From positions 68,909,351 to 68,973,350 of the forward strand of contig JASCQW010000109.1 of the NCBI GenBank assembly GCA_030264375.1: 64,000 nt of DNA, read 5' to 3'. A program made the position numbers. Shown here one piece after another: positions 9,001 to 59,700 of this stretch. The DNA comes from Carcharhinus longimanus. Its lineage: Eukaryota. The stretch's first letter is position 1. Each line of letters opens with the position of its first letter.

Positions 9001-12000
9001 TATGGTTGAACTAATTGATATGAATGATAACGCACCCCAGGTAGAGTTCGTATCAGTATCCAATGCAATCGTTGAAGATGCCCAACTTGGAACTGTGATT
9101 GCTATAATTAAGGTGACTGATCGAGATTCAGGAGAAAATGGGCAGATTTATTGCCAGATTTCTGGGAATGTTCCATTTAAATTACAAAAATCTTTACGGA
9201 ACACTTATAAATTGGTTACAAATGATATCCTCGATCGTGAAACAGTGCCAGGGTACAACATCACTATTTCAGCATGGGACAGAGGATCGCCCCCTCTGTC
9301 AACACAGAAAACTATCACGGTCTCTGTTTCTGATAAAAATGATAACGCACCGAATTTCACACAATCGTTATACAATGTATATCTGATGGAAAACAACACT
9401 CCCGGTGCTTCCATATTTGCAGTTACGGCTTTAGATTCTGATATGGACCATAATGGTCAGGTGGCGTATTCTATTTTGGAGAATCGGATGGAACAAGGAC
9501 CTGGTCACGTCACAATTAATACCAAAAATGGCAACATTTACTCACTTCGCTCCTTTGACTATGAACAACTGAAGCAATTCCAGTTCAAAGTTCAAGCCCA
9601 GGATGATGGATCTCCTCCTCTGAGCAGCACTGCTACGGTGAATGTTATTATCCTGGACCAAAATGACAATGCTCCAATTATTGTTTCACCTTTAGTATGG
9701 AACGGCTCAGCATCAGTGGATGTTAGGCCGCAGTCTGTATATCCAGGATACCTTGTCACCAAGGTAATCGCCACTGATGCTGATTCTGGACAGAACGCAC
9801 GGCTTTCATACCAATTGTTGGAGGCCCCTGATCCCGGCTTGTTTAATGTGGATCTCCTGTCTGGTGAAATCAGAGCAACTCGGCATTTTGCAGATAATGA
9901 CATCATCATAGAAAGACTGGTGCTTTTGGTAAAAGATAATGGGCAACCCACTCTCTCCTGTACGGCCACAATCTCCTTTACAATCTTGTCCAATGTTACA
10001 GAGGAATCTTCCAAATTAACCTACAAAGCCAAATATTTTTCGGATTTGAATCGTTATTTGATCATCATTTTAGGATCAACTTCATTTCTGTTTCTTGTCA
10101 TCATAACTTTTCTGATCACCCTGAAGTTTAAACAAGAAAGCAATGTTGCTGAAGATCACAGCACCAGAGTTTGCTGCTGTTGTCGGAGGAATTCTAATCT
10201 GTCCTTTAATCCGAGCCCTCCAGGAAATGTGTCTTTAACTTATAGTGGACCTGGTCAGGCTGAAAGATTTGGTTATACGGTATGTTTATCTCCAGAATCA
10301 TCCAAGAGAGATTTTCTCTTTTTAAAACCCTGTCATCCAACTTTGCCTTTCAATGAAGTGAATATCCACAACACTAACGGGATGACATAATTTAGACAAG
10401 AACATTCATGGTGACAGATAATTCACTTTGATGAAAAGTTAATTTTTGTGTTCCATCAGGGAGTAAGTTTTGTCTATTTGATTATGTCCTTGAGTAGTTA
10501 TTAGAATGCATGATACGCGAAACTGCTTCTTGCTGGTCGTATCTGCCCATATACCCATGGTGCGAAATGTTACTTTTTTGAAAGCCATGAACAGTGCACT
10601 TTATACTATAGGATTTACATGAATTGTATATTGGTATGCCTCTTTGTGATTCCTCTCTCGCCTGCTGTCTATGTTTGCATTCACATAACAGTAGACAAAA
10701 TAGTAGCAGAAAGCATATTTGCAGACTTCAGTCTTTCAAAGCTGAATGCAACTTTGAAAGCTTTCTTTTAAACAGCATGTCAAAAAATGTTTTCCCATTA
10801 TGTGTAGTGCGAATGTTTGACAAAGCATCCTTTACGAAATATTAAATGCCATGCAAAAAAAAAAACAGTATCTCGACCAATTTTGCCGGGGTAAAACTAT
10901 TTCCCACATTTAATTCTCATTTTACGCAGCACCTCTGGTTGATTGGGTTGAATTAAACTGTTTTGATATTTGGATATCGGGATTCACAATACTCTCACAA
11001 TACCCACCATATTCACACAAATAAATACTCTATGTGCTGCGAAATGCCTGACATGTCACAGACTCTAACTATAATTTTATGTGACTGCACAATCTTGTGG
11101 TTATGCAATGCATCCTGAATATTCTTACGCATAATTCAGCCTGCTTTCGAAATTATGAAATTCTGCCCTTTCCTCCAAGTATGTTAGAGGAAAATAATCA
11201 AACCCTCTTCCTTGCAAAATTTATGCTGTAGAATTACACATTTATTGTTTTCCTCCACATGATATAACTAACCATTTTTATTAGAAAACAGCTTTCTGTG
11301 TTGTAAATGTGACAACACGGTAAAGTGTTAAGAGCGTTCTAAATTCGGCAAAAAACCTGTTTATTCCAGCCAAACACACGGCCTTTCCTAATTGACAATA
11401 AAACAGCGGTATCACTGGAAATTCCGGCTTCCATACTTTCAAAGATTTCTCTTGTGAAACATTTGCCCTTGTTCACCTCTCCATCTCTGCAGCCCTTGGT
11501 TCGATGGATCACAGCATCCTTCCTCTTCGTTCAGTTCATTGGGTCGGTTTTGCCTGGTTTCACATTTCACAATTTTATCAAAGCCCATCTCTAATCACGA
11601 TTCCCCTTCTCGGCACATGATTTTCTTTTTGGAGATATCCAAGGATCTTTTTTTTATTATCGCAATGTTGTTTGAATGGTGATCAAATATCCAAGTCTAA
11701 GATGTATTTCCCTTCGGCGTTGAGCAGACAGAAATCATTGTCTCCAGCGCCCATCATAAGTGCTAGATGCTTGAAATTATCTCAGCCATTGTTTTAATCA
11801 GAACAGGAGTGTTCTCAATCATTTGACTCACAGCCCTGTAACAAATTACTTTATCCTTGCAATCACTGCTTAAGCCTTCAAAAACATAACTGCCTCCTTT
11901 CTTATCCCAGCCCATTTTCCAGTGAAAGTGATATCTTCATCAATTCCAGATCCTGCTATTGCAAAGTGTTCCTGATCGGCGCCCGTCCGGTCCTCCACAA

Positions 12001-56700: not shown

Positions 56701-59700
56701 TTTAGCAAAGCTCCTCTGGTCTAATTTTTGCCTTCCTCCGTTTCTTATTTGTATACGATTTTTTAAAATCAAATAGTGTTGTCGTGTAAGAGACAACTTA
56801 GCAGAATCGATTGGACAATTTAAATTTTGCAAAAAAAAAACCTTCCGCACGAGAACAATGGCCTCAATGAGCTGCGGTGTACTGTTCATTTTTCTGTTCT
56901 GTCTGTCGGACCTGGTTTCAGGACAAATTCGCTACTCGATTCCCGAGGAGCAGGAGCACGGGGCCTTTGTTGGGAACATCGCTGAGAATTTGAGATTACA
57001 TATTTGGGAATTATCGGCTCGTAAATTTCGCCTGGCCTCCGAAGAAAGGAAGCAATACATTGAGGTAAATCTGGAAAATGGGGTTTTATTTGTTAATGAA
57101 CGGATCGACAGAGAACAGCTTTGTCGACAAAGCCCTGCCTGTTCCTTTTCGTTGCAAGTCGTCCTCGATAAACCTATGGAAATACATCCTGTTGAAGTGG
57201 AAATATTAGATGTAAATGATAATTCACCCAAATTTCCGAATAGCGAATTCTTCTTGCAGATCAGTGAGTCAATTTCGGCAGGTGCGCGCTTCCCTGTCGA
57301 GAGCGCGCACGACCCGGACATCGGCACAAATGCAATCAGTACTTACCAGATCAGTCCAAATGAACATTTTGGCATCAGAGTTCAGACACGAAATGATGGA
57401 AGCAAAAGTGCTGAGCTGCTGTTAGAGAAAGCCTTGGACCGTGAACAGCAGTCAACCTTCAACCTTGTGCTGACTGCTGTTGATGGCGGTGAACCCCCGA
57501 GATCTGGCACAAGCCGGATTTCAATCACTGTCCTGGACGCGAATGATAACGCACCTATATTTGATCACGAAATATACAAATCCAGCGTCGCAGAAAATTC
57601 CCGCAAAGGGACGTTGGTGGCAACAGTCCACGCTGCTGATACAGATGAAGGTACCAATGCTGAACTGACCTATTCTTCCACCAGCCATGTTTCCCAGGGT
57701 ATTCGCGAATTGTTCAATTTAGACCCCAAAACTGGAGAAATAACAGTCCAAGGTGTACTGGATTTTGAAGAAGCAAGTGTTTACGAACTTGATGTAGAGG
57801 CCGTGGATAACGCTCCGCCTGGTGTGGCTGGACGGGCAAAAGTGATGGTTGGACTGATAGACACGAATGATAACATCCCCGAGATAGACGTGACTTTGGT
57901 GTCCAGCTCAGTGCCGGAAGATGCTCCTCCGGGGACTGTGATCGCTTTGGTCAGTGTTATGGATCCAGATTCTGGCGAATATGGGCACGTACAGTGTCAC
58001 ATTCCAAGGCAACTTCCATTCAAACTTCAAAAAACGTTGAAGAACAGCTACAAGTTGGTTACCAATGGTATTTTGGATCGTGAAGCATCCCCGACATACA
58101 ACATCTGTATTTCAGCCTGGGACGGGGGATTTCCCCCTCTTTCAACAAATACAACTCTTTTAGTTTCCGTTTCAGATATAAATGACAATGTGCCAAATTT
58201 CACACAATCCTTATATAACATATATCAGATGGAGAACAACACTCCAGGTGCTTCTATATTTGCTGTCGCAGCATTGGATTCAGATTTAGGCCGGAACGGT
58301 GAGATTCACTATTCAATTCTGGAGGCTCAGAATGAAGGAAGAGGCGGGACTGCTTACGTCTCCATCAATTCCAAACATGGGGACATTTACGCCCTGCGTT
58401 CCTTTAACTATGAACAGTTGAAGCACTTCCAGATCAAAGTTCAAGCCCAGGATATGGGATCTTCCCCGCTGAGCAGTACTGCCATTGTCAATGTTATAAT
58501 CTTGGATCAAAATGACAACGCACCGGTTATTGTCTCACCTTTAACCTGGAACAGTTCAGCATCAGTGGAGATTGGGCAGCAGTCAGTATTGCATCCAGGA
58601 TTTTTGGTGACCAAGATAATCGCGACCGATGCGGATTCCGGTCAGAATTCCCGGCTTTCCTATCAATCGATGGAGACCAATGGTTCCAATCTGTTCACTG
58701 TGGGCCTTCTCTCTGGGGAAATCAGAGCAAGACAACGTTTAAGGGAGCAAAGTATCAGCACAGCAAGATTGGTCGTCATCGTGAACGATAATGGACAGCC
58801 AAGCCTTTCCACCACGGTTACGATCTCATTTACCGTCTTGTCCAATGTAACAAAAAATTCTTCTGAACAAATTGATGAACCTGGTGCATCGAAGTATTTT
58901 TCGCATCTTAATGGTTATTTAATCGTTATATTGGGATCAACATCGGTTTTATTTCTTGTAACCATCATTTTCCTTGTCATGCTGAAGTTTAATCAAGGCA
59001 GAAATGTCGCTGAAGATCACAACTCTGCGGTTTGTTGTTACAGAAGACGGAATTTGAACGATGCCTTTAACCGGAGGTCTGCACCAAACGAACCATTTAA
59101 CTATGCCGAGTCTGCTCAGACTGAAGGTTATCACTATACCGTGTGTTTATCGCCAGAATCAGCGAAAAGTGATTTTCTGTTTTTAAAGCCCTGTAATCCT
59201 ACCTTGCCTTTCAATGACTTGGGTGTCCGGGATGCCAACACAAAAATATAGCTTGGAAGCAGTTTCGATGCAGGGAGTGGTAAATAATTCACACTTGGTA
59301 GATCTGTGTGTTATACTTAGAAATATTGGGTAAGCCATTCTTTGCTATACCACTAGGTCCTCGAATTTTGGTAGTTTAAGACTACATTAGTCAAATTGCT
59401 TACTGTTGCTGTTATATTTTTGCCTTTCACTGATGCTACACATATCTGCCCATATCCTCACAATCCTGAGCAGTGCATGCTTAATTAATATCATATTGAA
59501 GCCTGACATAATTGTTTGATTGTGTAAATTATAAAAGTGCAACCCCTTGCTCTGCTAATGTTACATCGCATATTTTGAGGTGGTCAATGCGACAAGAATA
59601 TTTTTTGGACGTTTGGTTACATTGAACAGTAATGAATCGTAAAACTAAATACGTGTCCCTGAAATAAATTCTCCGGTGTTATCATTGCGTGGAGTCGGCA

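What the first reader, a model, noticed from the sequence alone, without database searches (positions are those of the whole stretch)
10336..59251. All five 'variable exons' terminate at the same codon: a self-contained, Pcdh-beta-like single-exon subcluster in a shark
Seen: every intact ORF ends exactly 12 residues after PTLPF (NEVNIHNTNGMT, TDRVTPDSNPGI, NDLCVRETRAIK, SEVNVRDTNVTS, NDLGVRDANTKI). The stop triplets differ (TAA 10388, TGA 18750, TGA 32693, TAA 47844, TAG 59249) while the preceding residues diverge freely. No GT donor is conserved inside the ORF ends. Established: alpha/gamma-type variable exons splice in frame to shared constant exons, so stops after them are incidental; constant-exon-free clusters are best known as mammalian Pcdh-beta. 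Inference: the stop position is under selection, so these encode complete short-tailed receptors, an independent or ancestral beta-like architecture in cartilaginous fish.
[Added by the scan's program, not by the reader: the finding's places include an assembly gap (unread letters, written N; its length is only estimated) at 12496 to 12595, 15570 to 15580, 21742 to 21841, 24366 to 24402, 28007 to 28016, 29524 to 29743. Whether the letters on both sides are continuous or in frame is not known: test that first.]
Basis: partly seen in the sequence, partly recalled or inferred. Interest (0 to 1): 0.72.

Follow-up and report, generated by a model that had tools for sequence, protein, structure and literature searches.

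The report
Shark protocadherin-epsilon genes, single-exon, already known
The window holds five intact, tandem, single-exon protocadherin genes of the cartilaginous-fish "epsilon" subcluster, whose shared stop position is real and conserved, but this constant-exon-free design was already described for the elephant shark and is already annotated in many sharks and rays.

Summary
Five + strand ORFs of 790-797 aa each end exactly 12 codons after PTLPF, with TAA, TGA, TGA, TAA and TAG. No assembly gap lies inside any ORF.

The shared stop looks selected, not incidental:
- The paralogues are old (pairwise dS about 1.0-1.2).
- There are 0 gap columns in the 96 nt up to the stop and 23 of 96 just after it.
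- No GT sits at a shared position in the last 34 codons.
- The same tail length is kept in 38 of 42 members of a shark-plus-ray clade.

The closest named relatives are elephant-shark "protocadherin epsilon" proteins of 801-827 aa. The window ORFs nest among them when the tree is rooted on elephant-shark mu1. Mu1 is 950 aa and carries a constant tail; no epsilon-type protein I examined does.

It is beta-like in design, yet mammalian beta is the least similar clustered type. Transcripts were not examined. Interest is low.

The parts
1505..3984 (+). Degenerate sixth protocadherin variable-type exon (pseudogene or badly assembled copy), outside the finding's coordinates
   Evidence: tblastn of the five ORFs finds this as the only extra cadherin-like locus. 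It is split by gap 2193-2292, switches frame at least four times and has internal stops. It is 56-58% identical to Heptranchias proteins P0082, P0098 and P0091. It ends ...FLFLNPDTPAMSQEQF-stop, 10 aa after the FLFLxP motif, like the 10-aa-tail epsilon group. No promoter element lies upstream.
7746..7765 (+). Promoter conserved sequence element (CGCT box plus CCAAT) of gene 1
   Evidence: 2 mismatches to the 20-mer; 272 nt upstream of the ATG.
8018..10390 (+). Gene 1, intact single-exon Pcdh-epsilon-type ORF, 790 aa, stop TAA 10388-10390
   Evidence: Pfam: Cadherin_2, Cadherin (5 stretches), Cadherin_C_2. Orthologues are S. torazame P0106 and Heterodontus P0015.
16075..16094 (+). Promoter conserved sequence element of gene 2
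   Evidence: 0 mismatches; 284 nt upstream of the ATG.
16359..18752 (+). Gene 2, intact ORF, 797 aa, stop TGA 18750-18752
   Evidence: Orthologues are S. torazame P0040, Carcharodon P0033 and Heterodontus P0016.
30030..30049 (+). Promoter conserved sequence element of gene 3
   Evidence: 1 mismatch; 275 nt upstream of the ATG.
30305..32695 (+). Gene 3, intact ORF, 796 aa, stop TGA 32693-32695
   Evidence: The orthologue is Cetorhinus P0030.
45188..45207 (+). Promoter conserved sequence element of gene 4
   Evidence: 0 mismatches; 265 nt upstream of the ATG.
45453..47846 (+). Gene 4, intact ORF, 797 aa, stop TAA 47844-47846
   Evidence: 91.7% identical to residues 799-1595 of Mustelus asterias P0174 and 85% to Cetorhinus P0002.
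56578..56597 (+). Promoter conserved sequence element of gene 5
   Evidence: 0 mismatches; 280 nt upstream of the ATG.
56858..59251 (+). Gene 5, intact ORF, 797 aa, stop TAG 59249-59251
   Evidence: The orthologue is Chiloscyllium plagiosum P0051.

Best explanation
The window is part of the clustered-protocadherin locus of an elasmobranch, probably a carcharhiniform shark. It carries five intact members and one decayed member of the Pcdh-epsilon subcluster.

Shown:
- Each intact member is a self-contained gene.
- Each has its own promoter with a CGCT-box element about 270 nt upstream of the ATG.
- One roughly 2.4 kb exon encodes a signal peptide, six cadherin repeats, a transmembrane helix and a cytoplasmic domain of about 100 aa.
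- That domain ends in ...VCLSPESSKSDFLFLKPCHPTLPF plus 12 residues and the gene's own stop codon.

Inferred from conservation: the stop is the true end of the protein.

Inferred by analogy with mammalian Pcdh-beta, and not tested here: the genes are chosen by individual promoter choice in neurons. Their products act as recognition units that lack the common signalling tail. They presumably work in cis complexes with isoforms of the neighbouring subclusters that do carry a constant domain.
For: Anatomy: five same-strand ORFs with Cadherin_2, Cadherin repeats and Cadherin_C_2 (2 of 5 ORFs were scanned with Pfam). A 20-nt CGCT/CCAAT element occurs exactly 5 times in the window, 265-284 nt before each ATG, with 0 expected in shuffles. 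PMC2926608 mentions a CGCT element in mammalian and elephant-shark clusters (passage).

The stop is selected:
- Pairwise dS is 0.96-1.18, with whole-gene dN/dS about 0.2.
- The neutral chance that all five keep a stop is about 0.005-0.01.
- There are 0 of 96 gap columns up to and including the stop, against 23 of 96, 39 of 96 and 55 of 96 in the next three blocks.
- pS in the cytoplasmic part (0.47-0.72) is no lower than over the whole gene, so recent 3' gene conversion does not explain the shared end.
- In the 42-row clade that holds all five ORFs, 33 of 37 database proteins and 5 of 5 window ORFs have the same 19-aa distance from FLFLKP to the end. These include the rays Pristis, Amblyraja and Narcine.
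- Each window ORF has its own orthologues in other shark orders, so the stop has been kept in parallel lineages.

No donor: as described under the observation check.

Family: the best named hits are Callorhinchus 'protocadherin epsilon 8/9/14/18' at 58-61% identity. With mu1 as outgroup, these epsilon proteins bracket the elasmobranch sequences. Mu1 is only 47-50.5% identical.

No constant tail:
- None of the chondrichthyan hits among the 120 carries Pfam Cadherin_tail (PF15974).
- Of 34 long elasmobranch models examined, the 15 with the epsilon-type motif all lack PF15974, and 14 of them end at an epsilon-type stop; P0216 ends otherwise.
- The two elasmobranch models with PF15974 (P0149, P0170) lack the epsilon-type motif. 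Gene models can therefore include a constant tail where one exists.
Against: No transcript data were available, so use of the stop is inferred, not seen.

The window ends 4.7 kb after gene 5, and several intergenic gaps are of unknown size. Absence of constant exons in the window (best E 0.12 with the mu1 constant part) therefore says little about the locus.

Within the window the 12 tail codons show pN about equal to pS. They are only 54% identical at the DNA level, against 47% just after the stop.

The stop is not immovable. The Carcharodon and S. torazame orthologues of gene 2 end 2 codons earlier, one Heptranchias protein ends 1 codon later, and a Mobula protein runs 21 aa longer.

RefSeq holds two-unit fused models in which an epsilon unit is spliced 1-3 codons before its stop into the next unit (for example P0160, P0174, P0183). 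Donors near the stop can therefore at least be modelled.

The rooting rests on one outgroup and quick trees. The primary paper on epsilon (Yu et al. 2008) is not held, so its statement on constant exons is recalled and only indirectly supported.
Confidence: 0.85

Rival explanations
1. The ORFs are alpha/gamma-style variable exons that are spliced to constant exons lying beyond the window, for instance those of the next subcluster. The in-frame stops would then be incidental read-through into intron.
For: The window cannot show the 3' end of the subcluster. Every ORF has a phase-0 GT (a valine codon) 24-30 nt before its stop. Some RefSeq models in other species splice out 1-3 codons before the stop.
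Against: The phase-0 GTs lie at three different aligned positions. They read GTT or GTC in 3 of 5 genes, that is, without the purine at donor position +3. The stop is kept at one codon in 38 of 42 clade members, which an intronic stop would not be. Indels begin only after the stop. None of the chondrichthyan epsilon-type proteins in the 120 hits, and none of the 15 long epsilon-type models, carries a constant tail, while mu-type models do. The fused models run into the next variable unit, not into constant exons, and end at that unit's own epsilon-type stop.
Confidence: 0.07
2. The proteins end at the stop, but the transcripts are still spliced. A donor in the 3' UTR, a relic of the ancestral variable-exon donor, would join them to downstream exons that are then untranslated.
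For: GTAAGT, GTGAGT and GTAAGC lie at one aligned place 73, 78 and 79 nt after the stops of genes 1, 3 and 5.
Against: Genes 2 and 4 have nothing of the kind there. The exon side of the three sites does not fit the consensus (6 of 9 positions, by my count from the contexts). Such hexamers are not rare in 400 nt of AT-rich sequence. No orthologous genomic DNA could be compared.
Confidence: 0.06
3. The common stop position is only inherited from the ancestral copy, or is coincidence, with no selection on it.
For: All five descend from one ancestor. TAA, TGA and TAG interconvert by single transitions. The tail is weakly constrained within the window.
Against: Given dS about 1, the neutral chance of five retained stops is about 0.5-1%. 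The change from 0 to 23 gap columns falls exactly at the stop. The stop is retained across sharks and rays.
Confidence: 0.02

Closest known systems
Protocadherin epsilon subcluster of the elephant shark, Callorhinchus milii (Yu et al. 2008, PNAS 105:3819; paper not held, recalled; deposited proteins B0YN63, B0YN64, B0YN69, B0YN73 seen)
   Same: Same gene family: 58-61% identity, and the window ORFs nest among the named epsilon proteins when rooted on mu1. Same build: about 800 aa, six cadherin repeats, the Cadherin_C_2 motif ...SPESSKS[DE]FL[FY]LKP..., own stop, no Cadherin_tail domain.
   Different: The elephant-shark proteins run 23-32 aa beyond FLxLKP. The shark and ray clade of the window ORFs stops after 19 aa. 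The window genes belong to paralogue groups that expanded in elasmobranchs and have one-to-one orthologues among shark orders.
RefSeq 'protocadherin-10-like', 'alpha-C2-like' and 'gamma-A7-like' genes of sharks and rays (Cetorhinus, Scyliorhinus, Mustelus, Carcharodon, Heterodontus, Heptranchias, Stegostoma, Chiloscyllium, Rhincodon, Pristis, Amblyraja, Narcine)
   Same: Orthologues at 74-92% identity, with the same length and the same stop position in most.
   Different: Their names come from automatic transfer and hide the epsilon identity. Some are fused two-unit models.
Mammalian, lizard and coelacanth Pcdh-beta subcluster
   Same: It works alike: tandem single-exon genes, each with its own promoter and own stop, and no shared constant domain (PMC7811963 and PMC2764143, passages).
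   Different: It is not the same lineage. Among solved EC1-4 fragments of similar length, beta8 and beta6 score lowest (364 and 352 bits). GammaB7, gammaC4 and alpha4 score 417-420, and gammaA and gammaB3 about 400. PMC2764143 states that beta was found only in lobe-finned fishes and tetrapods and not in the elephant shark (passage).
Elephant-shark Pcdh-mu1 (B0YN77, P0131)
   Same: Same cluster family. The variable part is 47-50.5% identical and aligns through to the cytoplasmic motif.
   Different: It is 950 aa with a constant region and Pfam Cadherin_tail. No match to that constant part exists in the window (best E 0.12).

Membership tests
Clustered protocadherins | One large exon encoding signal peptide, six cadherin repeats, transmembrane segment and a short cytoplasmic part | tested here: met
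   Uninterrupted ORFs of 790-797 aa. Pfam Cadherin_2, Cadherin and Cadherin_C_2 in 2 of 2 ORFs scanned. Top solved matches are protocadherin ectodomains.
Clustered protocadherins | Tandem array in one orientation, each unit with its own promoter carrying the conserved CGCT element | tested here: met
   Five ORFs and one pseudogene on the + strand. The 20-nt CGCT/CCAAT element occurs 5 of 5 times, 265-284 nt before the ATG, with 0 expected by chance.
Clustered protocadherins | Stochastic, promoter-choice expression in neurons | not testable with these tools
   No expression data.
Pcdh-epsilon subcluster (cartilaginous fishes) | Closer to named epsilon members than to other subclusters; nests within them in a tree | tested here: met
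   58-61% identity to epsilon 8/9/14/18 against 47-50.5% to mu1. In the mu1-rooted tree, epsilon 14/18 and epsilon 8/9 bracket the elasmobranch set. Caveat: one outgroup, a quick tree, and no nu or delta sequences in hand.
Pcdh-epsilon subcluster (cartilaginous fishes) | No constant exons; each gene ends at its own stop | tested here: inconclusive
   The window holds no constant-like exon, but it stops 4.7 kb after gene 5 and has gaps. Indirect support is strong: conserved stop, no shared donor, and no epsilon-type protein with a Cadherin_tail. Transcripts were not seen.
Pcdh-epsilon subcluster (cartilaginous fishes) | Position in the locus between delta and mu (recalled from Yu et al. 2008) | not testable with these tools
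   Only 64 kb is in hand, and no eukaryotic genome collection is available.
Pcdh-beta subcluster | Single-exon genes without a constant region | tested here: met
   As above; this is a likeness in design.
Pcdh-beta subcluster | Orthology with tetrapod or coelacanth beta genes | tested here: not met
   Beta fragments are the weakest clustered-protocadherin matches in the solved-structure search. The literature places beta only in lobe-finned fishes and tetrapods (PMC2764143, passage). No full tree with beta sequences was built.
Alpha/gamma-type variable exons | A 5' splice donor at a conserved, same-phase position at the end of the coding part | tested here: not met
   no GT at a shared position in the last 34 codons. 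The phase-0 GTs before the stop lie at different positions and are GTT or GTC in 3 of 5.
Alpha/gamma-type variable exons | Shared constant exons downstream, joined in cDNAs | not testable with these tools
   The 3' end of the subcluster lies outside the window, and there are no transcripts.

The most novel reading that the evidence does not exclude
The constant-less design of epsilon arose independently of tetrapod beta, so 'tail-less' clustered protocadherins evolved at least twice. In addition, the exact 19-aa end (CHPTLPF plus N-[DE]-[LV]-x-V-R-D-T-N-A-x-x), kept since before sharks and rays split, would be a functional C-terminal module of the largest elasmobranch epsilon clade and not just a spacer.
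Probability: 0.35. Interest if true: 0.35.

Novelty: already known. Interest (0 to 1): 0.15.

Why it matters
It matters little beyond annotation. The five genes should be called Pcdh-epsilon-type. Automatic pipelines give their orthologues the names 'protocadherin-10-like' or 'alpha-C2-like'. Gene models that fuse neighbouring units should be distrusted.

For evolution, the result adds one detail. The stop position and the short tail of one large epsilon clade have been held since before the shark-ray split. Combined with the lack of special likeness to beta, this fits the view that constant-less carrier-type protocadherins are a recurrent solution. That view rests on indirect evidence here.

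Tried and rejected
1. Hidden donor. I scanned every GT in the last 60 codons of each ORF. None is shared in the last 34 codons. The shared ones at -108 and -104 nt lie in invariant V-C codons and would delete the conserved motif. Rejected.

2. Stop codon overlapping a donor (G|TAAGT type). The last codons end in A, A, A, C and A, so no GT spans the stop. Rejected.

3. Constant exons in the window. tblastn with the mu1 constant part at E up to 50 and word size 2 gave only noise (best E 0.12). I had no nu or delta constant sequence to try.

4. Poly(A) signals. The first AATAAA or ATTAAA lies 412-535 nt after the stop in 4 of 5 genes and at 2795 nt in gene 4. By my estimate this is about what the base composition would give, so it is not used as evidence.

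5. Recent gene conversion of the 3' ends as the cause of the common stop. pS in the cytoplasmic part is as high as elsewhere. Rejected.

6. Literature. Yu et al. 2008 and Hara et al. 2018 are not held. Searches found no held paper that states in words that epsilon lacks constant exons, or that describes the elasmobranch stop position. Supplements were not consulted.

All protein queries were single uninterrupted ORFs or stored database proteins.

No orthologous shark DNA could therefore be compared.

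
Full report
**What is in the sequence**

With the standard code and ATG starts, the window has exactly five ORFs of at least 250 aa, all on the + strand:

| Gene | Coordinates | Length | Stop |
|---|---|---|---|
| 1 | 8018-10390 | 790 aa | TAA 10388 |
| 2 | 16359-18752 | 797 aa | TGA 18750 |
| 3 | 30305-32695 | 796 aa | TGA 32693 |
| 4 | 45453-47846 | 797 aa | TAA 47844 |
| 5 | 56858-59251 | 797 aa | TAG 59249 |

The window has 12 runs of N. None lies inside an ORF or between an ORF and its promoter element, so the reading frames do not depend on any gap. What the intergenic gaps hide, and the true spacing of the genes, is not known.

Pfam finds Cadherin_2, cadherin repeats and the Cadherin_C_2 cytoplasmic motif in the two ORFs scanned, genes 1 and 3.

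**Surroundings**

A tblastn of the five proteins against the window finds only one further cadherin-like locus, at about 1505-3984 on the + strand.
- It is cut by gap 2193-2292, changes frame at least four times and carries internal stops.
- It is most like a different set of shark proteins, at 56-58% identity.
- It ends 10 aa after its FLFLxP motif, exactly as that other set does.
- It is therefore a decayed, or badly assembled, member of a second paralogue group.

Upstream of each intact ORF, 265-284 nt before the ATG, lies a strongly conserved block with a CGCT box and a CCAAT box. The 20-mer occurs 5 times in the window and nowhere else, with none expected in shuffles. PMC2926608 mentions a CGCT element in mammalian and elephant-shark protocadherin clusters (passage).

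The intergenic DNA holds reverse-transcriptase fragments of LINE type and a long C run beside one gap.

**Is the common stop more than chance?**

The five paralogues are old. Pairwise protein identity is 64-67% and dS is 0.96-1.18. Whole-gene dN/dS is about 0.2, and synonymous divergence does not drop in the cytoplasmic part. With about 0.5 neutral substitutions per site per lineage, a simple K80 model gives 0.005-0.01 for all five keeping a stop at that codon.

The alignment of the 3' ends shows a sharp boundary:

| Block | Gap columns |
|---|---|
| 96 nt up to and including the stop | 0 of 96 |
| Next 96 columns | 23 of 96 |
| Next 96 columns | 39 of 96 |
| Next 96 columns | 55 of 96 |

The frame is thus protected exactly up to the stop.

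Against a strong claim: the 12 tail codons themselves are weakly constrained among the five paralogues. Their pN is about equal to pS, and their DNA identity is 54%, against 47% just after the stop.

**Donor sites**

In the last 60 codons, the only GTs at one aligned position in all five ORFs are 108 and 104 nt before the stop. They lie inside the codons of the invariant V-C-L of YxVCLSPESS and match 3-7 of 9 consensus positions. Splicing there would remove the conserved FLFLKP motif.

Each ORF also has a phase-0 GT (a valine codon) 24-30 nt before its stop. These sit at three different aligned positions and read GTT or GTC in three genes.

No GT spans the last codon and the stop.

**Relatives**

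A search with gene 4 gave 7908 proteins at E up to 0.001 among 8000 scored candidates; the best 120 were listed.
- The closest are proteins of about 797 aa from many sharks and rays, named 'protocadherin-10-like', 'alpha-C2-like' and so on by automatic annotation.
- Examples are Cetorhinus at 85% and Scyliorhinus at 82%.
- The second unit of a Mustelus asterias model is 91.7% identical, so the window probably comes from a carcharhiniform shark.
- The only curated names among the relatives are Callorhinchus milii 'protocadherin epsilon 8, 9, 14, 18' (801-827 aa, 58-61% identity).

I measured the distance from the [DE]F[LM][FY]L[KQNS][PTS] motif to the protein end in all 120 hits.
- 71 had the motif and a tail of at most 60 aa.
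- The tail was 19 aa in 42 of them, which corresponds to PTLPF plus 12. Two of those 42 come from a source without an organism name.
- It was 10 aa in 7 and 17 aa in 6.
- It was 23-32 aa in the elephant-shark epsilon proteins.

**Trees**

The first tree had 78 rows: 73 of the 120 hits plus the five ORFs. Left out were the non-chondrichthyan hits, the long chimeric Callorhinchus models, one partial protein and the two unnamed-source proteins.
- Each window ORF has its own orthologues in other shark orders.
- All five fall in a 42-row clade (SH-aLRT 100) that also holds the rays Pristis, Mobula, Amblyraja and Narcine.

In that clade, 33 of 37 database proteins and 5 of 5 window ORFs have the 19-aa end. 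The exceptions are:
- two orthologues of gene 2 that stop 2 codons earlier;
- one Heptranchias protein that is 1 codon longer;
- a Mobula protein that is 21 aa longer.

Across the 38 tails there is a consensus N-[DE]-[LV]-x-V-R-D-T-N-A-x-x, with single positions kept in 23-28 of 38. The tail therefore does not diverge quite freely.

**Which subcluster?**

A second search fetched elephant-shark 'protocadherin mu1' (B0YN77). It is 950 aa and carries a constant region and Pfam Cadherin_tail.
- Its variable part is 47-50.5% identical to the window ORFs.
- Its constant part finds nothing in the window (best E 0.12).
- Rooted on mu1, a 53-row tree puts epsilon 14/18 at the base and epsilon 8/9 further in. 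The shark and ray sequences, including the five window ORFs, nest between and beyond them.

The window genes are therefore members of the epsilon family. The caveats are a single long-branched outgroup and a quick search.

**Constant region**

- The deposited epsilon proteins lack a constant tail, while mu1 from the same accession series has one.
- PMC2764143 names seven ancestral subclusters but lists constant exons only for alpha, gamma, delta, mu and nu. It says in words that beta has none (passages).
- From memory, Yu et al. 2008 describe epsilon as lacking constant exons. That paper is not held, so this point is recalled and only indirectly supported.
- Hara et al. 2018 is cited by a Squalomix preprint for the protocadherin cluster of elasmobranchs (passage). 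It is not held either.

As a control on annotation, I examined 34 long elasmobranch models from the second search.
- The two that carry Cadherin_tail (P0149 with a mu-like end, and P0170) lack the epsilon-type motif.
- The 15 that have the epsilon-type motif all lack the tail domain.
- 14 of those 15 are fusions of two neighbouring units and end at the second unit's own stop.

In these fused models, the first unit is left at or within about three codons of its own stop and joined just upstream of the next ATG. I take them for merging artefacts of tandem single-exon genes. They do show that occasional donors near the stop can be modelled.

**Likeness to beta**

The design is that of mammalian beta: tandem single-exon genes with their own promoters and stops and no shared tail (PMC7811963, passages).

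Kinship is another matter. Scores among solved EC1-4 fragments of 416-431 aa:

| Fragment | Bits |
|---|---|
| gammaB7, gammaC4, alpha4 | 417-420 |
| gammaA1, gammaA8, gammaB3 | about 400 |
| beta8 | 364 |
| beta6 | 352 |

PMC2764143 states that beta has been found only in lobe-finned fishes and tetrapods (passage). Epsilon therefore works like beta but is not beta. No full tree with beta sequences was built.

**Verdict**

It is the known Pcdh-epsilon subcluster of cartilaginous fishes, here in a shark, with annotated orthologues in many species.

What may be new is small. The stop and tail of one large clade have been held since before sharks and rays split. A second clade, to which the pseudogene belongs, has its own conserved, shorter end.

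Noticed in passing
window 1505-3984 (+): A sixth protocadherin exon, decayed: it is split by gap 2193-2292, has at least four frame changes and internal stops, and has no promoter element upstream. It belongs to a different epsilon paralogue group and still ends at that group's conserved position, 10 aa after FLFLxP.
   Followed up: partly
window 10463, 32773, 59330 (+): GTAAGT, GTGAGT and GTAAGC at one aligned place 73-79 nt after the stops of genes 1, 3 and 5, and absent in genes 2 and 4. This could be a relic of an ancestral variable-exon donor, a 3'-UTR donor, or chance.
   Followed up: partly
proteins P0146, P0151, P0157, P0160, P0167, P0173-P0176, P0179, P0181, P0183, P0186, P0188 (other elasmobranchs): RefSeq-type models of about 1600 aa that fuse two neighbouring epsilon units. 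They leave the first unit at or within about three codons of its stop and enter just upstream of the next ATG. In the Mustelus model P0174, the junction residues fit an AG 9 nt before the ATG of the window's gene 4. These are probably merging artefacts.
   Followed up: partly
window 16359-18752 compared with P0033 and P0040: The Carcharodon and S. torazame orthologues of gene 2 stop 2 codons earlier, while the window gene and Heterodontus P0016 keep the usual end. The stop has therefore moved within this orthologue group.
   Followed up: no
window 13064-13489 (+), 42860-43330 (+), 62299-63213 (-): ORF fragments that look like the C-terminal part of LINE reverse transcriptases, judged by eye from the translations and not searched. 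The last one is interrupted by gap 62352-62930.
   Followed up: no
window 29744-29786 (+): A run of about 42 C directly after gap 29524-29743, probably the reason for the gap.
   Followed up: no
window 45453-47846: Gene 4 is 91.7% identical to the second unit of a Mustelus asterias model, against 85% to Cetorhinus and 82% to Scyliorhinus. The window is probably from a carcharhiniform shark nearer to Mustelus than to catsharks.
   Followed up: partly
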